27,301 bases of DNA, taken from a bacterium (lineage in GTDB: Bacteria > Krumholzibacteriota > Krumholzibacteriia > LZORAL124-64-63). Made by a program: the position numbers and the translations under genes. The stretch's first letter is position 1; every line of letters begins with the position of its first letter. Location: positions 1 through 27,301 of the forward strand of contig DAOVZQ010000001.1 of NCBI GenBank assembly GCA_030635025.1, given 5' to 3'. Below the pieces are notes generated by a model. The model did not search any database, was not told where the DNA came from, and was given only the letters and a program-made list of their open reading frames with translations. Positions 2,539 through 24,180 of the stretch are shown piece by piece.

Positions 2539-3129
2539 TTACGACCTCACCCTCTCGCACTCGGCTTCGACGTGGTGTTCGTCCACGTCGTCGTCCTGAC
2601 GGTGGATCTTGATAGGCGACAGGGGGCCAGCGTCGACCACGCTCGAATCCGACGGGTTCACCACATCGATTATCCTGTCCCGTTCGGTGATATCTGTCAG
2701 CCGGGGCAAAAGCAGGTTCACGTCAACCACCTCCGCCCGTTGGCTCGTGTTGCTCTGGTTCACGGCGCCGAAGCCCGACAAGACCTCGTGTCGGCACGCC
2801 ACCCCGGTAGCCAGATCTGTCCACACGGGCACCCTCTGCCCACCCCCATCGACTTCCCACACCCTACCCCCCGAAACGTACGCCCCGTCCCCTGTCGACC
2901 CCGCGAGCGCGAAGGTGTTTGCCGTGGCCGCCGCAACGTCGAAGTCCCCGTTCGCCGCCGTGTTGCCCGTGACATCCTCGACCCGGACTTTCTCCCCGTC
3001 TGAGAACCCGTGCCCGGCGCCCGTGACCACTATTGGGCTCGCGTTCGTCGCATCGGTCACAGCCCGGCCGTCACGCTGGATCGTGCACGTGTGGATCAGG
3101 GCGGCGGTGAAAGCATCATCCGAGGCCAC
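2539..3129 (-). CDS. Head closure protein with an inserted E1-FCCH-like beta domain
   Basis: GTG start with AGGAGG RBS. LIHTCTIQR...DGGGQRVPVW...VACR and final HHVEAECERV fit SPP1 gp16-type head closure proteins; residues ~22-90 form an insert. Confidence 0.7.
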   Translation of the reverse strand: MASDDAFTAALIHTCTIQRDGRAVTDATNASPIVVTGAGHGFSDGEKVRVEDVTGNTAANGDFDVAAATANTFALAGSTGDGAYVSGGRVWEVDGGGQRVPVWTDLATGVACRHEVLSGFGAVNQSNTSQRAEVVDVNLLLPRLTDITERDRIIDVVNPSDSSVVDAGPLSPIKIHRQDDDVDEHHVEAECERVRS

Positions 3130-3502
3130 TGCGTTGCTCCTCCTTGCGCTGGATGTCCCAACTGTTGTACGGCGTGTGCCCCTTCTCTATGACGCCGCGG
3201 GCCGCCACGTTGGCATCCGCGTCCTCGCGTAGCGCCGCCGCCTGCTTGCGAAGGGACTCGGCCGCCGCCCTGTCGTCCATCGTCCAGTTGAGCGTCTTCT
3301 GCATCTTAGCCAGCCGCGACTTGCTACTCGCCACGGCCTCGAGGGCCATCGCCGATGCGAGCCGGACCGTCGCCGTCTCGCCAATCCAGTAATCCAGTTC
3401 CTCGTCGGTGAAGACCGGGGACGCGGAATCCGTGTCCTGGATCGTCAACCGGACTTGCGAGAGCGTGGTTGTCAAGACCTCTGGATCGTAAGTGAATGTC
3501 AT
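3116..3502 (-). CDS. Head-tail adaptor (connector) protein
   Basis: 128 aa with VRLTIQDTD...FTDEELDYW motif, directly upstream of head closure. Confidence 0.75.
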   Translation of the reverse strand: MTFTYDPEVLTTTLSQVRLTIQDTDSASPVFTDEELDYWIGETATVRLASAMALEAVASSKSRLAKMQKTLNWTMDDRAAAESLRKQAAALREDADANVAARGVIEKGHTPYNSWDIQRKEEQRSGLG

Positions 3503-3520: not shown

Positions 3521-5437
3521 TTAGAAGAATATGACTACTGGCGATGCTGCGCTGATAGTGGCGGTGGATTCTGCTGACGCGAACTCCAGGGCCCCCATCG
3601 TCCATACTCCGGCCTGGCGACAAACCCCGTCCACATCCACGTCAAAATCATAGTCCGGGAACTCTGTGGTCGGGAACATGGCCGAGACATCGGTGCCGGC
3701 GCCGATCCCCTGATTTGCGGCAACCAGGTGGAAGTCCCCTCCGGCGTAGTCAGAGAACGTCGAGGTGGTGTCTTCGTCTACGATTTCTCCGGTCTCGGGA
3801 TACCACTCGGGGGGGGCCGGAGTTTGATCCCAACGTAGTCCGCAGTACAGGTTGTAAGCCCTATCGTCCGCAGTCCCACCGTCAATGATATTGTTCCGGA
3901 CGACAAACATAGAGCCCAGTGTCCCTACGAAGCCGATGTCATCGACACTCCTCATCACCGAATTATGGAGCACGTAATTCGTGCCTCGGCATGGACTCCA
4001 TACCGCGATACCCCAAGCGGCTTCTCCACCATCAAAGATGTTGCCTATCGTATAGATGTCTTCGGAATCCGACATGGTAAAAGGGATGTTCGCGCTTGAC
4101 ATCAGAATCCTGTTGTGCGCCACGAGAACATTGGATGACTGCGCGTAGACCGACAAGCCGTTCGCATGAGTTCCCCAACAGTACTGGACAAGATTGCCTG
4201 TAGCCTGACTGTCAGAACATCCTTGAAACCAAATCCCAACATACCCAACATACTCAACCGTATTGTTGTCCACTTTGTTGCGATCCCCTGTCAACATAAT
4301 TCCGGGGTTGTATTGAGAATGGTGGACGTAATTCGAGGTGACCTCGAACGCTTCACCTTCGTGCAAGCGAATCGAGCCAACCCGCTCCATCGAACGCAGG
4401 TTATGGATCTCGTTGTTCCGAACGATGATATCAGATGCCGAGGTGTTCCACGTGTAAACCCCTACCCCGCCCGTCTCGCCCAGATCGCCATAAAACCCAC
4501 GAATCTCAAAACCTTCAAAGACCACGTACTGGCAACCAGAGAAGTTGACACCTACGGGCCTCTGGGACACGCTGTAAACATGATTCGATGGGGCGTCGGA
4601 GTCGTGTGTCCAGATAAAGACGGTGTTGTCCTTGTAGCCAACCGTGCCAGCGGAATTCATCACGCCGGGATGGCCAAGAATGGAATATCCACCATCGACA
4701 TCCGTATGGAGATCCGCCCCGATATCGTCAAAAGTAATCGTGTCTGTAGCGGGATTGAAAGATGTGATGGGCGAGAAAGACAACGAACTTGAGATATGGA
4801 AAAGCATGACGTAAGAATCATCCCAATACGACGAGTCTGATTGAGTGAAGTACGTTTGATCCGTAACGGTTGTTCGTGTCGCGGAAGTGGTCTCAGAGTC
4901 CAGCGGAATAGGCGTCTGCCCTTCGTGGGTGTTGAAGAATATCGGATATTCCGGGGCGGGATCTTGGGAAAACCAGAGAAACGCCGCGTCTTCATAAACT
5001 GACTGAAACGTAGCGAACCCTGCGGGTGCGGTGGTGTACCAGATGTTGGCCCAGTTTTCGTTGCCATAGCACTCCGTGGATGTCGTGCATTGCGTCCACG
5101 AAGGAGCCCACACGTCTGCACCCTCCAGGATAGCGTCGGGCGACCCCCAACCATCGCCCTTGTAGGTGATCAGCGAGACGCTCGTTCCGCTTGTGGCAAT
5201 CACAAGGTTGCCACGATAGACGACATCGCCACGAAACAGGAAGGTGTCGCCGGCCGCCGGCGTAGTCGAGTCGGCCACGCCGGTCGCATTCGGATCGCCG
5301 GGACAGTGTTTCCATGCCGTGGAGTCGGACGTGCCGTTGTTGGCATCCGACCCCGAATCGAAGTCGATGTAGTAGTCCGCGCAGAACGCCAGGCCAACGG
5401 TCAGGAAAAGGAAGAGAGTGAGTGTCGCGATCCTCAT
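3521..5437 (-). CDS. Signal-peptide-bearing right-handed parallel beta-helix (pectin-lyase-like) protein, 638 aa
   Basis: Preferred start ATG 5437: MRIATLTLFLFLTVGLAFC then ADYYIDFDSGSDANNGTS..AWKH. Repeated xxVxxNxxx beta-helix rungs (IIVRNNEIHN, VTSNYVHH, VDNNTVEY, ATGNLVQY). C-terminal GDFHL..NQGIGAG..DVDG..R....TMGALEF resembles choice-of-anchor Q endings. Confidence 0.8.
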   Translation of the reverse strand: MRIATLTLFLFLTVGLAFCADYYIDFDSGSDANNGTSDSTAWKHCPGDPNATGVADSTTPAAGDTFLFRGDVVYRGNLVIATSGTSVSLITYKGDGWGSPDAILEGADVWAPSWTQCTTSTECYGNENWANIWYTTAPAGFATFQSVYEDAAFLWFSQDPAPEYPIFFNTHEGQTPIPLDSETTSATRTTVTDQTYFTQSDSSYWDDSYVMLFHISSSLSFSPITSFNPATDTITFDDIGADLHTDVDGGYSILGHPGVMNSAGTVGYKDNTVFIWTHDSDAPSNHVYSVSQRPVGVNFSGCQYVVFEGFEIRGFYGDLGETGGVGVYTWNTSASDIIVRNNEIHNLRSMERVGSIRLHEGEAFEVTSNYVHHSQYNPGIMLTGDRNKVDNNTVEYVGYVGIWFQGCSDSQATGNLVQYCWGTHANGLSVYAQSSNVLVAHNRILMSSANIPFTMSDSEDIYTIGNIFDGGEAAWGIAVWSPCRGTNYVLHNSVMRSVDDIGFVGTLGSMFVVRNNIIDGGTADDRAYNLYCGLRWDQTPAPPEWYPETGEIVDEDTTSTFSDYAGGDFHLVAANQGIGAGTDVSAMFPTTEFPDYDFDVDVDGVCRQAGVWTMGALEFASAESTATISAASPVVIFF

Positions 5438-5451
5438 ATCAGCCTGTCCTG

Positions 5452-6546
5452 CTACTCGAACGTGCAAACGACGGAGAGCCCAAAAGGTTCGGTACCGGAA
5501 TGGATGGCATCCACGTCGAAGTAGATCTCGTCGCCGGTCGCAACATCGTCATTCGACGTGTTGATCGTTTCGTCGTTGGCGAAGAACTCGTCGCCGATGG
5601 TGACGGCGGCGCTCAACATGTCGGCATTTGCACCGCCCCTCCTGCGGACCACCATCACGTTTGTGGTACCGGTCACGCCTTTCGTGTTGACGGTGGCCAG
5701 AACATCTGTCAGCTCGAGCCCGTTCAGTGCTGCCGGTATTGGTATGCCGTTGATGCCAGATCCGACCGTCACAGACGTAGCCGAGTCGAAGATGTTGATA
5801 GCAACCATACGAGAACGAATGGCCACATTAACCACGGGAACGATGTTCACAAGGATCTCGCCATTGCTGACGTGCGCGGCTACTACCTGCCCGACGCGCA
5901 TCGGGAACTCCGTGGGGGCCGATGGGCATGTGTCTGTGGTGGCGCCTGAAACGGCGGCCGACAGAAAGATGTCGTCGCCCTCGGAAAACGCGCTGGTATT
6001 GAGATCCCGCACGAGCCCGAAGACTGTTACCTTTCCGTTCGTGTTGTGCGCAATATCATGTGTGGCCACGCCGAGCAGCCGGCTGGTATCCTCCGCGTCC
6101 GCTCGGGCGAGCGCGATTGTCGGCCTGTTGCCCGTGGCGCCCGAGATGTATACCACCTGGCCGTTGGTGACCTCTTCGCCCGTCTCGTTGCGCGCAACCA
6201 CCCAAGACTCCTGGCCAATCTGGTTCGTCACCCCGGTGACGTTGGCCCGAAACGCAAGCGTGCCAGCCGCAGAGTCCCAGAACATCTGGCCGGGGTTGTG
6301 TTCCTCGGGGGGCTCGACATCGGTGTCGAACTGGATTGCGTAGGCGTAGTTGGCTACCACCCGCCGGACACCATCGACGATCACATTCATGGCGCCAGAG
6401 CCAAACAGGGCGATCAGGGCCAGGACGATGAAGGCCCACATGGTCTTGCGGGGAAATCGTCTGGTGCGCCGCGCAGGTACCTGTCTCCGCGAAGCCCCAG
6501 CAGTTCGCCTTACCGTTCTTGGCGTAGTCTGTGGCCATTTCCTCAT
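5452..6546 (-). CDS. Membrane-anchored protein with a capsid-cement (DUF2190)-like middle domain and a C-terminal beta-sandwich
   Basis: ATGA overlap with upstream stop. Arg-rich N-terminus, then hydrophobic MWAFIVLALIALFGSGA. RNETG..VYISGATG.RPTIALA...LLGVATHDI...GKVTVFGLV module. Confidence 0.6.
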   Translation of the reverse strand: MRKWPQTTPRTVRRTAGASRRQVPARRTRRFPRKTMWAFIVLALIALFGSGAMNVIVDGVRRVVANYAYAIQFDTDVEPPEEHNPGQMFWDSAAGTLAFRANVTGVTNQIGQESWVVARNETGEEVTNGQVVYISGATGNRPTIALARADAEDTSRLLGVATHDIAHNTNGKVTVFGLVRDLNTSAFSEGDDIFLSAAVSGATTDTCPSAPTEFPMRVGQVVAAHVSNGEILVNIVPVVNVAIRSRMVAINIFDSATSVTVGSGINGIPIPAALNGLELTDVLATVNTKGVTGTTNVMVVRRRGGANADMLSAAVTIGDEFFANDETINTSNDDVATGDEIYFDVDAIHSGTEPFGLSVVCTFE

Positions 6547-19828: not shown

Positions 19829-21244
19829 CTACAAATCGAAGTCCGCGGCCATCAGGTTGTCGAAGTCGGTCAGGGAGTCGTAGACCTTGACGCTGGTCGT
19901 CGGCTCGGGCCGCTGCAGGGCGGTCAGTGCCCACACAAGGGCGTCCAGGCGGTCAGGGGAGTCCATGCCTGTGTTGGGTTGCCAGTCGCACATCTGGGCC
20001 TCGAGCACGCCGAACTTGCCCACATGGTGGACGCGGCGCTGTTCGTACAGCATCGAGATCGGTTCGGCCCGCGTCGCCTTGCCCCTGGATGCGTGGACGG
20101 CCTTAAACGGGATGTTCGGGTCTTCAGTGTGGATGGCCATCTCGATGAGATCGCCGCCGTTGTTGACCTCACCGATCATGCAGTTCACCCGATGCGCGTG
20201 AAAGGTCCCTATAGAGGCCTCGGCCCACTCTTGGGGGCGCCCCCTCAGCGACGCGTCGTCGAAGACGTAGTATTCGCCATGGCCGTTCGTGGCCGCGGTC
20301 ACGATGCCGGTCTCGCTCGATGTCTCTTTGGCAGAGACGGCTGGGTCTACGCCAACAACGGCGTAAGTCATGCCAGGCAAAAGCCTCTGGACAAGGGCGT
20401 CGAGTTCCTTTTTTCCCAGGTCCCCACCCATCCGGGTCTCGTCGATCCACGCGCGTTGCCACAGGGCGTTCGGGTTGTCTTCCAAGAGTTCGGCATGCAG
20501 TTCCTGCCGGCCACGGCGCGTCCCCTCGTACTTGTTCAGCAAGTGGGCGAGATATTTGGGGGCGAGGTGCGCGCGGTTCTCATACGTGTTGCCGGTTGTC
20601 AGCACAGTGTTCGGATCATCGCTACGCGCATCCTTGACCAACTGGCGCATGATCGGCACGTTCTGGGGCGTGGTCGTGACCATGACCTGGGGATTGTCGC
20701 CCTCGCGCAGGCCCATGATAAGGCCATCATCCCACGCTTCTTCCGCATACCTCCACTTCGCTACCTCGTCAGCCCAGGCGCGATCATGCCCCGGCCCCCG
20801 CAACTGGCCCGGCTCTTGTCCTGAGTAAGTCGTGGCTATAGCGCCGTTCGGCCACGTCAACTGGCGGTTGGTCCACTGGTACTCGGGCATGAAATCTGGC
20901 GGGCTGTTCTGGAGTATGCCACCCGGCCCTTCGACCAACACCTTGCGGGCATCGGCGGCCGTCTCAGCAACGAGCGCGATGTTCTTGCACTCCCCCTTGC
21001 GCACCCCATCGATGATCCACTCGGCGCCGGCCCGCGTCTTCCCCGACCCTCGGCCAGCCATGAAGAGCCAGACGAACCAATCGCCCTCGGGCGGCAACTG
21101 GTTCGGCCTGGCCCAGAAGGTCCAGTCAAAGGACAGCGCCTCGAGTTCGTCGGGGGTCAGTTTCTTGAGGATCTTCGCGGAGACCTCGGGCGGCATCTCC
21201 GCCAGGTCGGCGAAGGTGGGGAGGGCTGTGGGGGCGGGGGTCAT
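19829..21244 (-). CDS. terL: Terminase large subunit
   Basis: DWTFWARPNQLPP start motif, Walker A AGRGSGKT, LRGP, Walker B AWADE, nuclease VVGVDPA and SPDRLDALVWA. Start ATG 21244 lies 1 nt after the upstream stop. Confidence 0.95.
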   Translation of the reverse strand: MTPAPTALPTFADLAEMPPEVSAKILKKLTPDELEALSFDWTFWARPNQLPPEGDWFVWLFMAGRGSGKTRAGAEWIIDGVRKGECKNIALVAETAADARKVLVEGPGGILQNSPPDFMPEYQWTNRQLTWPNGAIATTYSGQEPGQLRGPGHDRAWADEVAKWRYAEEAWDDGLIMGLREGDNPQVMVTTTPQNVPIMRQLVKDARSDDPNTVLTTGNTYENRAHLAPKYLAHLLNKYEGTRRGRQELHAELLEDNPNALWQRAWIDETRMGGDLGKKELDALVQRLLPGMTYAVVGVDPAVSAKETSSETGIVTAATNGHGEYYVFDDASLRGRPQEWAEASIGTFHAHRVNCMIGEVNNGGDLIEMAIHTEDPNIPFKAVHASRGKATRAEPISMLYEQRRVHHVGKFGVLEAQMCDWQPNTGMDSPDRLDALVWALTALQRPEPTTSVKVYDSLTDFDNLMAADFDL

Positions 21245-21245
21245 T

Positions 21246-21530
21246 TCAAGGCAGGCCGACGGGGCGCCTCTCCTGCCGAGCAGGATCTCGGCGAAACTGA
21301 AAGCCCCTCTTGGGGTGAACGCCATGCGATCTCAGCAACCGCCGTAGCGCCTGGTCTCGGCCTTTCTCGGTCCGGTATCTGTGCCAGACGCACCACGGGT
21401 CCCACCGGTCTTCCCTGTGTTTCTTGTAGTCGCAGAACGGCCACTTCTCTCGACACCAGATCAGGAAGTGCCCGACCGGCCTCTTGCGCTTTGGCCTCAT
21501 GTCTGGCGGGCGTTCTTCCTCGGGCCTCAT
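21246..21530 (-). CDS. Basic Trp-rich hypothetical protein, 94 aa
   Basis: ATGA overlap at its start; stop abuts the terL start. Confidence 0.5.
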   Translation of the reverse strand: MRPEEERPPDMRPKRKRPVGHFLIWCREKWPFCDYKKHREDRWDPWCVWHRYRTEKGRDQALRRLLRSHGVHPKRGFQFRRDPARQERRPVGLP

Positions 21531-21850
21531 GCGTTCGCCGCCTGCACACAGACAGTATTCGCCAGCCAGGTCTCTTTCAGGCGAATGGCCGACTCGGTCA
21601 TCGCGTCGTCATCCTCCATGGCATACTCTTCCCAGATCACAACGGCCTCGTCCTCGCAGTCGGATTGCAGGGACCCGATCGGGCCCGCAACGCTCATCTG
21701 GAACTCGTGGTTGCAGGCGACATGCACCTGATCCGAGTCGGGGCCGTCGTGCGGGTGTGCGTGCCAGATATCCAACACGATCGGACGCTTGAAGCGCAAG
21801 GACAGCCCGTCGCGATTGATCTCTGCGATAACAATGGCGTTTCCGCTCAT
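21527..21850 (-). CDS. Acidic hypothetical protein, 107 aa
   Basis: Start trimmed to ATG 21850, just after the structured RNA. Confidence 0.55.
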   Translation of the reverse strand: MSGNAIVIAEINRDGLSLRFKRPIVLDIWHAHPHDGPDSDQVHVACNHEFQMSVAGPIGSLQSDCEDEAVVIWEEYAMEDDDAMTESAIRLKETWLANTVCVQAANA

Positions 21851-21856
21851 GGTAGA

Positions 21857-22009
21857 TTTCTGGCGGGCCGGACTCGAAACCGACTGCCCGTGTTTCACAG
21901 CAGATCTTTGCGCATGGTACCCTTACGCCACGGGAAACGACCATCAGCCAGGGTGTAAGCCTGGAGACCTGAAAACGCTTAGCGTGTCCTTCCACGCCGC
22001 CGCCAGAAA
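21857..22009 (-). ncRNA. tRNA-like structured RNA, 153 nt (not a canonical tRNA)
   Basis: Closing stem TTTCTGGCGG/CCGCCAGAAA; D-like arm GCGTG-GAAGGA-CACGC; T-like arm GTCGG-TTTCGAGT-CCGGC stacked on the closing stem; branched central insert. Confidence 0.65.
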
Positions 22010-22035
22010 CTCCTTTCACCCATTGGTGATTCTCT

Positions 22036-22134
22036 TCATCCGATCTTCCTCTTCACGCCCCAAAAGAATCCGCCAAGCACAACCGCACACCAAACGAACC
22101 CACACGTCACCCGGAAGCACTCCCAGCCGGTCAT
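22036..22134 (-). CDS. Small single-TM peptide, 32 aa
   Basis: MTGWECFRVTCGFVWCAVVLGGFFWGVKRKIG; starts 4 nt after the methyltransferase stop. Confidence 0.4.
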   Translation of the reverse strand: MTGWECFRVTCGFVWCAVVLGGFFWGVKRKIG

Positions 22135-22138
22135 AGCG

Positions 22139-23011
22139 CTACTCCCCCGCAACCTTCACGATGCCGACCGGCTGATAGGTCGGGTTCCAGTGTCTCGTTC
22201 GTTCGCGGAGCATCTGGCAGTTGACCACCGCGTCAAAGATCGCGTCGAACTTCGACCAGTTCGTCGTGAAGTTCTCGCGCCCACTGACCCGAAGCAGGCG
22301 CATCAGGGTCTCGATGGTCAGGCACTGCGCGTTGTAGAAGTCGTGGTACCAATCGATGTCGCGAGACGCGCAGACGGTCGCGATCAGTTTGCCGCCCGAC
22401 TTGATGCAGCCCATGAGGTTCGCTATCGACGCCTCCATCGTGTCAACCGAGTTGTGCTCCAGGGCGGAGATGCTGATAACGTGGTCGACCTTGAGGGTAG
22501 GCAGTTTCCAGGAGACGCCGTCCGCGAGGACCGCAGACAGGCCGGGGTCGTCGAGAGCGTGGCGCAGGATCTGGACGCGGCCTTTCCGTCGGCGGGTCAA
22601 CATGCCGGTCTTGCGGATCTTCTTGGCCCAGCCTCGCAGGTATCGCGGGGGGAGAAACGAGATGAGGTTGAGCGGGTCGTTGTGGGGCTCGAGTTCGCCG
22701 GGTCGAAAACCCTCGACCTCGCACCATTGGCGGAACCGCCGGGGAACCGCGCCGTGTTGCATCCCCTTGTCCACGGAGATCACCGTGGCGCCCTCGGACG
22801 CAAGCCACCACTGCATTAGGCCCCGGCCGGCACCGGCGTCCAGGATGGTCAGCCCCTTGACGTCGTCGGGCAACTGTTTGCGGCACCAGATCAGATCGAG
22901 GTAGTAGTGCCACCCCAGATCGAGGACGAGCCGTTTCTCGATGTCTTTGACGCGGTGGAGGAGCCGGTGGTTGTTGAGTAGCGCCGGTCCGAGCAGTTCG
23001 ATCTTGGTCAT
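22139..23011 (-). CDS. Class I SAM-dependent methyltransferase, 290 aa
   Basis: Motif I ILDAGAGRG, then VISVD, VDHVISISALEH and KSGGKLIATV; ATGA-coupled to terS. Confidence 0.85.
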   Translation of the reverse strand: MTKIELLGPALLNNHRLLHRVKDIEKRLVLDLGWHYYLDLIWCRKQLPDDVKGLTILDAGAGRGLMQWWLASEGATVISVDKGMQHGAVPRRFRQWCEVEGFRPGELEPHNDPLNLISFLPPRYLRGWAKKIRKTGMLTRRRKGRVQILRHALDDPGLSAVLADGVSWKLPTLKVDHVISISALEHNSVDTMEASIANLMGCIKSGGKLIATVCASRDIDWYHDFYNAQCLTIETLMRLLRVSGRENFTTNWSKFDAIFDAVVNCQMLRERTRHWNPTYQPVGIVKVAGE

Positions 23012-23577
23012 GCGGCCTTCCCTTTCTTCTTGCCCTTGACCCCTTTGCCGCTCGCCAGCGCCGCGATCTTCTTGCGGGCCTCGTCGGCTCTTGTGTGGGT
23101 GACTATGGCGGTCAGGTCCACGTCGTGTTGCTGAGCATCCCGCCATTCTTTCGGCTTCCGATTCTTGAGCCAGAAGATCTGGGCGGTCACATTCCCAAGG
23201 CGCCGCTTGGGTATTTCCTTCACGCTGACCAGTTTCTTCTTGCCCTTGACCACGATGTAGCGGCTCTCAACTTCAATCCATTGCTCGGACCGGCAGTTGT
23301 GCAGGAGTTCGTTTTCGACGCTTTTGTCGACCGGCTCTTTGCCACCTTTTAGGGACTGACAGAAATCAGGGTGGCTGTTCTTCCAGCGATTGAGCGTCCT
23401 CTCCGTTACGCCGAGAATCTTGGCGATCTCCACGTCCGTGTGACCACCGAGGGCAAGACATCGCGCAAGTTCGGGGTGACGATCCGGGTTGTAGGTAGAG
23501 GGTCGCCCTTTGCCAGCCGCCTTCTTCGGCTTCCCCTTCTTGCGGCTCACCGAGGCCTTGGATGCGGCGGCTACCAT
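23008..23577 (-). CDS. terS: Terminase small subunit, 189 aa
   Basis: GRPSTY, HTH (TDVEIAKILGVTERTLNRWKNSHPDF) and AQIFWLKNRKPKEWRD motifs; start trimmed to ATG 23577. Confidence 0.88.
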   Translation of the reverse strand: MVAAASKASVSRKKGKPKKAAGKGRPSTYNPDRHPELARCLALGGHTDVEIAKILGVTERTLNRWKNSHPDFCQSLKGGKEPVDKSVENELLHNCRSEQWIEVESRYIVVKGKKKLVSVKEIPKRRLGNVTAQIFWLKNRKPKEWRDAQQHDVDLTAIVTHTRADEARKKIAALASGKGVKGKKKGKAA

Positions 23578-23605
23578 AGATAGCGGTCCAGTCCGATACG
23601 AGATC

Positions 23606-23693
23606 GACCGGAAGCCCACAGAGCGTTCGGCGGGTACCATCTGAGGAATGGCGCGTTGGCCAACGCTCCAGCGGAGCCCCGTGGGCCCCGGTC
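23606..23693 (-). promoter_or_regulatory. Structured 5' leader of terS containing a 14-bp palindrome
   Basis: Long imperfect stem GACCGG-GGCCCACGG / CTGTGGGCT-T-CCGGTC, inner GAGCGTT/AACGCTC; GCGTTGGCCAACGC at 23653..23666. Confidence 0.4.
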
Positions 23694-23870
23694 TCTTTAC
23701 CCCTACGCCCAGCGCGCCCCCGGCGTCAAGCCTTTCCCGCGCCCCAGCCCGCAGAAGTTCACCCTTTTTCTGTAACAAAAAACACGCCCCTCTCGCGCCA
23801 AGGGCTATAAGTCCCGCAGCGCCAACACTCCCCGCCCCTCTCCCCAAGCCAAAGAAATTTGCTTTTCCCC

Positions 23871-23900
23871 TTGACAGTCCCCCGCAATCTGTGGCACTCT
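23871..23900 (+). promoter_or_regulatory. Probable sigma70-type promoter of the rightward operon
   Basis: AT-rich upstream tract, TTGACA, 18 bp, TG-n-CACTCT, 37 nt before the first ATG. Confidence 0.45.
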
Positions 23901-23937
23901 GTAGGCAGACAGAGAGGGGCCGCAAAGGAGAGAGACG

Positions 23938-24180
23938 ATGAAAACGATCTTTGAACTTGACGACCACGAAGGCGTTCAGGTCTTCCAGAGGGAATCCGAC
24001 AAGATGGTGGTCCTCGGCTTCTGGCGCGAGGACTTGGTTGACGATGCCGGAAACCGCACCCGCACCACCGATGCCGTCGAAATCGAAATCGGCGGTATCG
24101 GCGACTTAAAGCGCCTCGTTAACGGCGCCAAGAACCTGCTTCACGACATGGCGAAGACTGCGGGAGGGACCCCAGCCTGA
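23938..24180 (+). CDS. Hypothetical protein, 80 aa
   Basis: AAGGAG RBS; first gene of the divergent operon. Confidence 0.7.
   Translation: MKTIFELDDHEGVQVFQRESDKMVVLGFWREDLVDDAGNRTRTTDAVEIEIGGIGDLKRLVNGAKNLLHDMAKTAGGTPA

What the first reader, a model, noticed from the sequence alone, without database searches (positions are those of the whole stretch)
21857..22009. tRNA-like RNA with an expanded, branched anticodon domain between terS and terL
Seen (minus sense): acceptor-like CTGGCGG/CCGCCAG, 2-nt linker, D-like arm GCGTG-GAAGGA-CACGC. Then a three-way junction closed by CAGGTCT/AGATCTG, holding CCAGG-CTTACAC-CCTGG (5-bp stem, 7-nt loop reading CU-UAC-AC, like a Val anticodon loop) and ATGGT..CCC-GTGGCGTAA-GGG..ACCAT. 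Then a variable-like arm CTGTG-AAA-CACGG and a T-like arm GTCGG-TTTCGAGT-CCGGC. CTTAC in the first loop is complementary to GTAAG at the second, allowing a kissing or pseudoknot contact. It has no U8, an 8-nt T loop and no terminal CCA. Inference: a tRNA mimic that could be an RNase P/Z processing signal splitting the late mRNA, a decoy for anticodon nucleases or tRNA-sensing defences, or a packaging-linked RNA.
Basis: partly seen in the sequence, partly recalled or inferred. Interest (0 to 1): 0.8.

Follow-up and report, generated by a model that had tools for sequence, protein, structure and literature searches.

The report
Phage tRNA-like RNA gene family
The stretch is a real, conserved small RNA gene carried by many phages: it copies the upper half and "elbow" of a tRNA but replaces the anticodon half with a freely varying domain, and no curated RNA family describes it.

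Summary
The window is a phage contig from a cold-seep metagenome bin. Positions 22010..21856 (minus strand) lie in a 288-nt gap that has no coding signal.

What is confirmed: the closing stem, the D-like hairpin and the T-like hairpin are real. About 55 related elements share them: about 48 distinct sequences in the 52-row alignment, plus two later model hits and five copies cut by contig ends. They come from unrelated phage, prophage and metagenome contigs.
- The outer four pairs of the closing stem covary through all four Watson-Crick types; 95.8% of cells are paired, against 32-43% when partners are slid.
- A model built without the window finds the window copy at 77.9 bits (E 3.5e-14).
- That model also finds a second copy in the same phage, outside the window.

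The middle 42-109 nt varies freely between members.

How it differs from a tRNA: the closing stem is 6-18 bp (11 bp here) rather than a 7-bp acceptor with CCA.

ARAGORN and Rfam 15 call nothing. Members are co-oriented with reliably annotated neighbouring genes, often sit beside real phage tRNA genes, and two abut one by 2 and 5 nt.

Best reading: a stand-alone tRNA-mimic RNA gene with a constant tRNA-like handle and a variable cargo domain. Its function is untested.

The parts
21856..22010 (-). Whole tRNA-like RNA element (155 nt)
   Evidence: Hit by model R1 (91.6 bits) and by the leave-out model R2, built without the window (77.9 bits, E 3.5e-14). No coding signal in any frame across 22150..21880.
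22000..22010 (-). 5' strand of the closing (acceptor-like) stem, GUUUCUGGCGG
   Evidence: Pairs with 21866..21856. Pair probability 0.98. The outer four pairs covary through GC, CG, AU and UA across 49 distinct aligned rows.
21998..21999 (-). Two-nt linker CG (tRNA positions 8-9 by analogy)
   Evidence: CG in 47 of 49 distinct family rows.
21982..21997 (-). D-like hairpin GCGUG-GAAGGA-CACGC
   Evidence: Pair probability 0.93. The stem is conserved, and its fifth pair switches GC to UA in 6 members. The loop carries GG, as a tRNA D loop does.
21885..21981 (-). Variable middle domain (97 nt). The MFE gives two long arms: AAGCG/CGUUU + UCAG/CUGA + the CCAGG hairpin, and CCCGUG/CACGGG + GCGUA/UGCGC
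Evidence: Homologs have 42-109 nt here with unrelated sequence and fold.
21867..21884 (-). T-like hairpin GUCGG-UUUCGAGU-CCGGC (8-nt loop)
   Evidence: Pair probability 0.84. The stem is kept in the family, with U.G pairs and GC-to-AU changes. It abuts the closing stem with no spacer in every member shown in the printed alignment, apart from a few misaligned rows.
21856..21866 (-). 3' strand of the closing stem, CCGCCAGAAAU
   Evidence: Complement of 22010..22000. No CCA follows.
21527..21850 (-). Flanking gene ORF107. Its ATG lies 5 nt after the closing stem and has no Shine-Dalgarno motif
   Evidence: Coding signal from about 21880 onward. Called by the public gene caller. No homolog among 5.8 billion proteins. 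Start context.
22139..23011 (-). Flanking gene: class I SAM-dependent methyltransferase. Its 58%-identical homolog led to the first related RNA element
   Evidence: Pfam Methyltransf_11/25. Homolog P0123 lies on contig L033, which holds a family member about 430 nt downstream of that gene.

Best explanation
The element is one copy of a phage-borne small RNA gene family that no curated resource I searched describes.

Every member has a constant tRNA-like handle:
- a G+C-rich closing helix of 6-18 bp whose inner five pairs are GGCGG/CCGCC;
- a CG linker;
- a D-like hairpin, GCGU(G)-loop-(C)ACGC;
- a T-like hairpin, GYCGG-loop-CCGGC, stacked directly on the closing helix.

Between the D and T hairpins sits a domain of 42-109 nt that varies freely, even between closely related prophages.

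Shown: it is a conserved, base-paired element, read on the strand of the reliably annotated flanking genes. It travels among unrelated phages, and it often sits in tRNA gene clusters.

Inferred: it is transcribed with its neighbours and cut out by the same enzymes that release the adjacent tRNAs. It folds into an L-shape with a tRNA-type elbow. It acts in trans, with the constant handle docking on a host factor that recognises the tRNA upper half and elbow. Candidates are RNase P, tRNA-modifying enzymes, the ribosome, or a tRNA-targeting defence enzyme. The variable domain would carry the phage-specific part of the function.

It cannot decode, because it has no conserved anticodon loop, no 7-bp acceptor and no CCA.

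The confidence figure of 0.5 is for the whole statement. I put about 0.9 on 'a genuine conserved structured RNA family' and about 0.4-0.5 on 'acts in trans as a tRNA mimic or scaffold'.
For: Non-coding setting:
- A 288-nt gap has no coding signal in any frame and no gene call on the public contig.

Homologs:
- The first came from a contig that shares only the methyltransferase gene.
- Pattern scans gave 11 full members among about 157 hits to the 3' block. Two-block scans of IMG/VR gave 54 more loci.

Pairing and covariation:
- 95.8% of cells pair, against 32-43% when partners are slid.
- Covariation score is 0.319 against 0.081 in shuffles (0 of 500 reach it).
- The four outer closing-stem pairs, which were not part of any search pattern, each show GC, CG, AU and UA, with 23-32 double changes.

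Independent detection:
- Leave-out model R2 finds the window copy (E 3.5e-14) and a second copy in the same phage outside the window, at L031:937-1062 on the minus strand. The two copies differ in the closing stem by a compensatory pair.

Elbow:
- A D loop with GG goes with a T loop holding UC[GA]A in 30 members. No GG goes with UUGA in 5. Only 3 members are off the diagonal.

Strand:
- G.U pairs outnumber A.C by 20 to 10.
- Elements are co-oriented with the neighbouring genes that have confident family hits.

Gene-like setting:
- 12 of 53 elements lie within 1 kb of a real tRNA; in 10 of those 11 loci the tRNA is on the same strand. Two abut a tRNA by 2 and 5 nt.
- In a 41% G+C locus the element is 57% G+C.

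Modularity:
- The same closing stem occurs with different middles, and the same middle with a different closing stem.

Distribution:
- Found in 1 of 141 genomes of one bacterial class, so it is not a host core gene.
Against: - No RNA data. The only public runs holding this phage are DNA, so transcription, ends and processing are inferred.
- The family was collected with patterns that fixed the inner closing stem and part of the D and T stems. Their invariance is therefore partly ascertainment, and the true family may be broader.
- Closing stems of 9-18 bp are poor RNase P substrates by the 7-bp rule, which the YrlA paper cites as a major determinant of cleavage (PMC4201824).
- The D-loop/T-loop correlation may rest on only a few evolutionary events.
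- No partner protein recurs beside the elements, so the proposed docking partner is unknown.
- Some T loops (UGCAAUU, CUGGGGUAA, GAUAGUC) depart far from the tRNA consensus.
Confidence: 0.5

Rival explanations
1. It acts in cis as RNA 'punctuation'. The tRNA-like fold is only a cleavage signal (RNase P, RNase Z, or RNase III on the long closing helix) that splits the polycistronic phage transcript and sets the ends and stability of the flanking mRNAs. The excised RNA has no role of its own.
For: - Members sit at module boundaries: repressor/antirepressor before, RecET, helicase or terL after.
- In the window, ORF107 starts 5 nt after the stem and has no Shine-Dalgarno motif. Cleavage there would leave a nearly leaderless mRNA.
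- Two members abut tRNAs by 2-5 nt.
Against: - A pure cleavage signal needs shape, not sequence. Yet the CG linker and the D stem GCGU/ACGC were conserved in members found with a pattern that did not include them.
- It does not explain a variable domain of 42-109 nt that is swapped between related prophages.
- Nor does it explain two copies in tandem (L074, L078, L195).
Confidence: 0.2
2. It is an antisense immunity or regulatory RNA of the P1/P7 C4 or P4 CI kind. A tRNA-like frame lets RNase P release it, and the variable loops pair with target sites in phage transcripts, which would explain their phage-specific sequences.
For: - Constant frame with hypervariable middle in related prophages.
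- Frequent location near repressor and antirepressor genes.
- The second copy in this phage has a perfect 14-nt complement to a site 17 nt upstream of the Shine-Dalgarno motif of a downstream gene on the same strand.
Against: - Across 47 members, the longest antisense match of the middle to its own +-800 nt flanks is no better than to other loci's flanks (self maximum 11 nt, same distribution).
- The window copy has no match of 11 nt or more anywhere in the phage.
- There were no Rfam hits at all, so none to C4 or related families.
- The single 14-nt match has an expectation of about 0.04 before correcting for G+C content.
Confidence: 0.1
3. It is a DNA-level element: an attP-type tRNA fragment, a miniature inverted-repeat transposable element whose closing stem is its terminal inverted repeats, or a pac/cos-type packaging site.
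For: - It has terminal inverted repeats of 9-18 bp.
- One member lies next to an integrase gene.
- The window copy lies between terS and terL.
Against: - The outer repeat sequences differ in almost every member while staying complementary. A transposase- or terminase-recognised end would keep its sequence.
- Both halves of the frame are present, not only a tRNA 3' part.
- No match to any of the 34 tRNAs of the genome bin.
- G.U pairs are favoured on the strand of the reliably annotated flanking genes.
- Most members are not near terminase or integrase genes.
Confidence: 0.03
4. It is a true decoding tRNA with inserted sequence: either a tRNA-Sec/UGA suppressor with a 52-nt intron, as relaxed ARAGORN draws it, or a tRNA-Val read from the CUUACAC loop.
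For: ARAGORN at 92% of its threshold, with introns allowed, calls tRNA-SeC(tca) with an 8-bp acceptor. The CCAGG hairpin has a 7-nt loop with U33 and A37.
Against: - The same ARAGORN setting gives 223 intron calls in the 2.9-Mb bin and 3 in this window.
- TGA is the stop codon of 20 of the 30 genes whose start and stop context was read, so a UGA reader would be harmful.
- No homolog keeps either loop.
- Closing stems of 9-18 bp with no CCA.
- No hit to the Rfam tRNA or tRNA-Sec models even at E up to 10.
Confidence: 0.02

Closest known systems
Bacterial Y RNAs with tRNA-like modules (YrlA; D. radiodurans Yrn1)
   Same: [quoted passage not shown] That paper says the order of arms in Yrn1 differs from YrlA. 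Whether Yrn1's order is the D, middle, T order seen here is my inference.
   Different: YrlA is circularly permuted (T arm, acceptor-like hairpin, D arm), has a Ro60-binding helix and lies next to a Ro60 (rsr) gene. Here the order is that of a tRNA. No Ro60-like family was among the top neighbour families, no protein recurs beside the elements, and there is no Rfam hit.
P1/P7 C4 antisense RNA and P4 CI RNA (own knowledge: small phage immunity RNAs released from longer transcripts by RNase P)
   Same: Small RNAs of temperate phages, embedded in operons of the immunity or early region. They have a frame recognised by tRNA-processing enzymes and phage-specific variable loops.
   Different: C4 and CI act on nearby complementary sites, and no such excess complementarity is seen here. 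No Rfam hit. C4 and CI are not known to me to carry a D-loop/T-loop elbow.
tmRNA tRNA-like domain
   Same: An acceptor helix stacked on a T arm, a D-loop analogue, and a large non-tRNA insert between them. Also carried by some phages.
   Different: tmRNA has a 7-bp acceptor with G3.U70 and CCA, a tag reading frame and pseudoknots, and is 230 nt or longer (own knowledge). Here position 3 is G-C, there is no CCA, the length is 99-167 nt, and neither ARAGORN -m nor Rfam finds anything.
Canonical phage-encoded tRNAs
   Same: Same genomic niches, including direct adjacency on the same strand. Similar D and T hairpins; some members have the exact UUCGAAU T loop.
   Different: No anticodon arm, a closing stem of 6-18 bp, 8-nt T loops in most members, C8 instead of U8, and no ARAGORN or Rfam tRNA call.
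phi29 pRNA (own knowledge)
   Different: The junction and loop complementarity are not favoured in this copy and are absent from homologs. Most members are not near packaging genes.

Membership tests
Canonical tRNA | Detected by tRNA finders and models (ARAGORN default, Rfam RF00005/RF01852) | tested here: not met
   ARAGORN finds 0 genes in the window. Rfam gives no hit at gathering scores or at E up to 10. The relaxed ARAGORN call is at noise level.
Canonical tRNA | 7-bp acceptor stem followed by a discriminator base and CCA (encoded or addable) | tested here: not met
   The closing stem is 11 bp here and 6-18 bp in the family, pairing on through positions 73-76. No CCA is encoded. CCA addition could not be tested.
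Canonical tRNA | Anticodon arm: 5-bp stem with a 7-nt loop holding U33 and a purine at 37 | tested here: not met
   This copy has one such loop, at the end of a 14-bp bent arm. Homologs have loops of 4-11 nt or single long arms.
Canonical tRNA | T arm abutting the acceptor, a D arm two nt after the acceptor, and loops able to form the elbow | tested here: met
   The geometry is kept in nearly all aligned members. D-loop and T-loop types change together. Three-dimensional structure was not tested.
tmRNA | G3.U70 pair, CCA end, tag reading frame, detection by ARAGORN -m or the Rfam tmRNA models | tested here: not met
   Position 3 is G-C in 46 of 49 rows. ARAGORN -m finds nothing even at 80% of its threshold. 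No Rfam hit.
YrlA / Y RNA | Permuted order (T arm, acceptor-like hairpin, D arm), a Ro60-binding helix, and a neighbouring Ro60 gene | tested here: not met
   The order here is closing stem, D, middle, T, against the YrlA description in PMC4201824. No recurrent neighbour protein. No Rfam hit.
C4 / CI antisense immunity RNA | Loops complementary to target sites in the same transcript; match to Rfam C4-type models | tested here: inconclusive
   No Rfam hit. No excess self-complementarity within +-800 nt in 47 members. One 14-nt match exists for the phage's second copy. Distant or host targets were not tested.
phi29-type pRNA | Conserved three-way junction with two mutually complementary loops | tested here: not met
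   Junction helix probability is 0.07. It is not conserved in homologs.
MITE or att-site remnant (DNA element) | Conserved terminal repeat sequence, or identity to a host tRNA 3' end | tested here: not met
   The outer repeats covary rather than stay constant. There is no similar tRNA among the 34 tRNAs of the bin.
The family defined here (phage tRNA-like RNA with a variable middle) | Closing helix ending in GGCGG/CCGCC, a CG linker, a GCGU..ACGC hairpin, and a GYCGG..CCGGC hairpin abutting the 3' strand | tested here: met
   The window scores 77.9 bits (E 3.5e-14) against a model built without it.

The most novel reading that the evidence does not exclude
Phages carry a modular RNA made of a conserved tRNA-shaped handle and an exchangeable cargo domain. 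The handle would recruit or block a host factor that reads the tRNA elbow and acceptor helix, for instance a tRNA-targeting defence enzyme or RNase P. The cargo domain, which is swapped between related prophages, would set specificity. That would make it a new class of trans-acting phage counter-defence or regulatory RNA.
Probability: 0.3. Interest if true: 0.85.

Novelty: new variant of a known kind. Interest (0 to 1): 0.7.

Why it matters
tRNA mimicry is a recurring strategy (tmRNA, Y RNAs, viral tRNA-like structures), and tRNAs are a main battleground between phages and bacterial defences. This is a widespread phage RNA family with good covariation support. It keeps only the tRNA upper half and elbow, sits in tRNA gene clusters, and carries a fast-changing internal domain. 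ARAGORN and Rfam 15 both miss it.

If it binds a host tRNA-recognising factor, it would add a new kind of phage-encoded RNA effector, and it would give a natural 'tRNA scaffold' for displaying variable RNA domains. At the least, it is an annotation gap: these loci are currently read as empty intergenic DNA or as spurious ORFs.

Tried and rejected
- **Relatives of this phage.** There are none close. The phage collection gave no DNA match. The best terL relative is 55% identical among 5.8 billion proteins. ORF107 has no homolog. The 29 IMG/VR terL loci hold no tRNA and no related element.
- **Microdiversity.** Three cold-seep runs of one study carry the identical sequence with no variants and are not RNA runs. 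This gave neither covariation nor expression data.
- **Relaxed ARAGORN call** of tRNA-SeC with an intron. Rejected as noise.
- **Host tRNA or att origin.** No similar tRNA in the bin.
- **My own tRNA-frame scan.** It also flagged 22155..22270 on the plus strand, antisense inside the methyltransferase gene. I judged this a chance palindrome. Background was 5 long hits in 5.8 Mb, so that statistic alone is weak.
- **Exact 25-nt pattern** in IMG/VR: no hits.
I replaced it with two scans.
- **blastn of two family members** against 50,697 phage records: no match.
- **RNAduplex test** of the middle against its flanks. It timed out, then proved uninformative because of long interior loops. I replaced it with a longest-complement test, which was negative.
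- **Shared neighbour proteins.** None beyond the methyltransferase in two loci and a weak terS similarity.
- **Literature.** No paper was found describing this family. One search failed on a short term.
- **Genome sampling.** 140 further genomes of the class of one carrier hold no other copy.

Full report
**Setting**

The window is the whole of contig C358 of a 75%-complete metagenome bin. The only public runs that hold it are cold-seep DNA metagenomes of one study. It is a phage contig with 62% G+C. On the minus strand the gene order is:
- terS, 23967..23008 (phrog_309);
- a class I SAM-dependent methyltransferase, 23011..22139;
- a 288-nt gap;
- ORF107, 21850..21527;
- ORF94;
- terL (Terminase_6N/6C).

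A codon-usage and GC3 scan shows strong coding signal in the methyltransferase frame down to about 22150 and in the ORF107 frame from about 21880. Between these points no frame shows any signal. The gene caller on the public contig did not call it either. The finding therefore lies in true non-coding sequence.

**The observation itself**

ARAGORN at default settings and Rfam 15 call nothing, whether at gathering scores or at E up to 10 on the local 500 nt.

The 153-nt fold is not unusually stable (z = -1.69). However, the MFE is a cloverleaf whose spacers match a class II tRNA:
- closing stem, 2 nt, D hairpin, 1 nt, a long bent arm, 0 nt, a second long arm, 2 nt, T hairpin, 0 nt, closing stem.

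In the ensemble the closing stem (0.98), D hairpin (0.93), T hairpin (0.84) and CCAGG hairpin (0.94) are robust. His fold scores -51.3 against -62.3 kcal/mol for the MFE. The closing stem is 11 bp, not 7.

With thresholds lowered to 92% and introns allowed, ARAGORN draws a tRNA-SeC with a 52-nt intron. The same setting gives 223 intron calls in the 2.9-Mb bin and three in this window, so the call carries no weight. TGA is also the stop codon of 20 of the 30 genes whose start and stop context was read.

**Finding relatives**

The phage itself is an orphan:
- no DNA match in 50,697 phage records;
- the best terL relative is 55% identical;
- ORF107 has no homolog;
- three samples hold the identical sequence, with no variants.

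The methyltransferase has a 58%-identical homolog on a 2.5-kb JGI contig. About 430 nt downstream of that gene lies an element with two conserved blocks and a middle of 54 nt instead of 97 nt:
- the same 5' block: closing strand, CG, then GCGUG...;
- the same 3' block: CGGUUU-GA-N-UCCGGCCCGCC.

Its first two closing pairs are C-G and C-G where the window has U-A at the corresponding outer positions.

A pattern taken from the 3' block alone gave 3 viral, 96 metagenome and 58 genome hits. Most lack a 5' partner and are chance hits. Eleven carry the full frame, including the CG linker and the GCGU..ACGC hairpin, which the pattern did not specify. Five more copies are cut by contig ends. Two-block patterns then found 54 further IMG/VR loci.

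A covariance model aligned 52 elements, 49 of them distinct rows, with lengths of 99-167 nt.

**Evidence for a conserved RNA structure** (unless stated)

- On the 52-sequence alignment, 95.8% of cells form standard pairs, against 32-43% when the 3' partners are slid by one to three columns.
- The covariation score is 0.319 against 0.081 in shuffles; none of 500 shuffles reaches it.
- The four outer pairs of the closing stem were never part of a search pattern. Each shows GC, CG, AU and UA, with 23-32 double changes.
- The fifth pair of the D stem switches GC to UA in six members, and a T-stem pair switches GC to AU in three.
- G.U pairs outnumber A.C by 20 to 10 on the strand that matches the reliably annotated flanking genes.

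A model built only from IMG/VR sequences, without the window, finds the window element at 77.9 bits (E 3.5e-14). It also finds a second copy of the same phage on the longer public contig, outside the window (L031:937-1062, minus strand, 46.7 bits). That copy lies in the oppositely oriented early operon. Its closing stem differs from the window copy's by a compensatory pair.

**What is tRNA-like and what is not**

Conserved features:
- a G+C-rich closing helix whose inner five pairs are GGCGG/CCGCC;
- the CG linker, in 47 of 49 rows;
- a 4-5-bp D-like stem with a 6-8-nt loop;
- an A before the T stem, in 39 of 47;
- a 5-bp T-like stem stacked on the closing helix.

T loops come in types, and D loops track them:
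- Type 1: the exact tRNA consensus UUCGAAU and near variants.
- Type 2: 8-nt loops such as UAUCAAGC, AAUCAAGC and UUUCGAGU (the window's type).
- Type 3: UUUGA-N-U.
- A D loop with GG goes with UC[GA]A in the T loop in 30 members. A D loop without GG goes with UUGA in five. Three members are off the diagonal.
- This is what the tRNA 18/19-55/56 elbow contact predicts. It may rest on few evolutionary events, so I treat it as suggestive.

Against a true tRNA:
- closing stems run from 6 to 18 bp, mostly 9-16, and no CCA follows;
- position 8 is C;
- the 42-109 nt between the D and T hairpins has no conserved sequence, length or fold, with one or two arms, sometimes possible pseudoknots, and loops of 4-11 nt.

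The Val-like loop and the CUUAC/GUAAG complementarity are therefore peculiarities of this copy.

**Genomic behaviour**

All annotated contexts are phage or prophage.
- Among large co-oriented neighbours, the upstream set is led by CI-like repressors, other regulators, antirepressors and integrases. The downstream set is led by RecE/RecT, helicases, DNA methyltransferases and large terminases.
- No protein family recurs beside the element. The exceptions are the methyltransferase in two loci and a weak terS similarity.
- Twelve of 53 elements lie within 1 kb of a real tRNA gene, and in 10 of those 11 loci the tRNA is on the same strand. In L078 a tRNA-Arg ends 2 nt before the closing stem. In L061 a tRNA-Phe starts 5 nt after it. 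Cleavage at those tRNA ends would release the element with its full extended helix.
- Several contigs carry two copies (L074, L078, L195, L240, L242, and this phage).
- In a 41% G+C locus the element is 57% G+C.
- Related prophages, one of which carries a Burkholderiales-2 RNA, share an identical 15-16-bp closing stem but have different middles. One middle recurs with a different closing stem. Frame and middle therefore behave as separate modules.
- In 141 genomes of the class of one carrier, only the carrier has the element. It is an accessory phage gene, not a host RNA.

**How it most likely works**

Shown: this is a conserved, base-paired, strand-specific element that moves among unrelated phages and sits among tRNA genes.

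Inferred: it is transcribed with its neighbours, released by tRNA-type processing and folded into an L-shape. It then acts in trans through its constant handle, with the variable domain supplying a phage-specific function.

Confidence:
- About 0.9 that this is a genuine structured RNA family.
- About 0.4-0.5 that it acts in trans as a mimic or scaffold rather than in cis.

Rivals:
- **A pure processing signal** (0.2) explains the positions and the Shine-Dalgarno-less ORF107 start. It does not explain the conserved primary sequence or the swapped middle.
- **A C4/CI-type antisense RNA** (0.1) fits the modularity and the immunity-region setting. However, the middle is no more complementary to its own flanks than to foreign ones. 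The only lead is a 14-nt match of this phage's second copy to a site 17 nt upstream of a downstream gene's Shine-Dalgarno motif.
- **DNA-level readings** (att site, MITE, pac site) and **a decoding tRNA** are disfavoured, as set out under the rival explanations.

**Comparison with known families**

The element works most like the tRNA-like modules of bacterial and phage Y RNAs and like the tmRNA tRNA-like domain. It fails the defining tests of each: order of arms, Ro60 linkage, G3.U70/CCA/tag, and model hits. It also fails the tests for a canonical tRNA and for phi29 pRNA.

No Rfam 15 family matches any of the members tested. The literature searches found no description. I cannot exclude that it is among the 10,006 unnamed candidate RNAs of PMC10690425, whose sequences I could not search.

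**Verdict**

- The 'tRNA mimic' reading is supported; its proposed functions are untested.
- The finding leads to a widespread phage RNA family absent from Rfam 15 and from the papers I could search. I rate it a new variant of a known kind (tRNA-like non-coding RNAs), with interest 0.7.

Noticed in passing
L031:937-1062 (minus strand; same phage, longer public contig, outside the window): A second copy of the tRNA-like element sits in the leftward early operon, between an IstB/DnaC-like gene and a 68-aa gene. Its closing stem is UUUCCCGGCGG/CCGCCGGGAAA. A (GGAGA)n purine run follows it, directly before the next ATG.
   Followed up: partly
L031:321-334 (minus-strand RNA): A perfect 14-nt complement to the middle domain of the second copy lies about 600 nt downstream on the same strand, 17 nt upstream of the Shine-Dalgarno motif of the next gene. 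Expectation is about 0.04 before G+C correction, and the site may also be part of a local hairpin.
   Followed up: partly
window 21850 (minus strand): ORF107 starts 5 nt after the closing stem with no Shine-Dalgarno motif, although most genes of this phage have GGAG-type motifs. It has no homolog among 5.8 billion proteins.
   Followed up: partly
window 22039..22016 (minus strand): A seven-codon mini-ORF (MKRITNG) with a GAGGA motif upstream ends in the GGTGAAAGGAG that immediately precedes the element. An AAAGGA-type purine motif also precedes the element in L033 and the second copy.
   Followed up: no
window 21530..21246 and 21325..19829 (minus strand): ORF94 has coding signal (GC3 0.80-0.87), but the public gene caller did not call it. 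It overlaps the annotated terL start. terL homologs align only from residue 37-51 onward, so the true terL start is probably downstream of 21325.
   Followed up: partly
window 22155..22270 (plus strand): My own scan for tRNA-like frames also flagged a 116-nt stretch antisense to the end of the methyltransferase gene. It has a 7-bp closing stem and a hairpin CGAAC-TTCGACCA-GTTCG. I judged it a chance palindrome inside coding sequence (fold z = -1.42).
   Followed up: partly
L074:2716-2882 and 3109-3212; L078:3575-3711 and 3806-3939; L195:5271-5378 and 5473-5581: Tandem pairs of family members lie 90-230 nt apart. In L074 and L078 the two copies share the same closing-stem sequence but have different D loops, T loops and middles.
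   Followed up: partly
L241:10046-10189 (minus strand): The 3' end of the 16-bp closing stem runs straight into GGTGTAGCTCAGTTGAT, which looks like the 5' part of a tRNA. Neither ARAGORN nor Rfam calls a tRNA there.
   Followed up: no
window, whole contig: TGA is the stop codon of 20 of the 30 genes read on the public contig, so there is no sign of stop-codon reassignment. The public ENA contig of the same phage is 36.8 kb, longer than the 27.3-kb contig in the bin. An ungapped comparison of the two showed many mismatches, which I did not resolve (probably an indel offset).
   Followed up: partly
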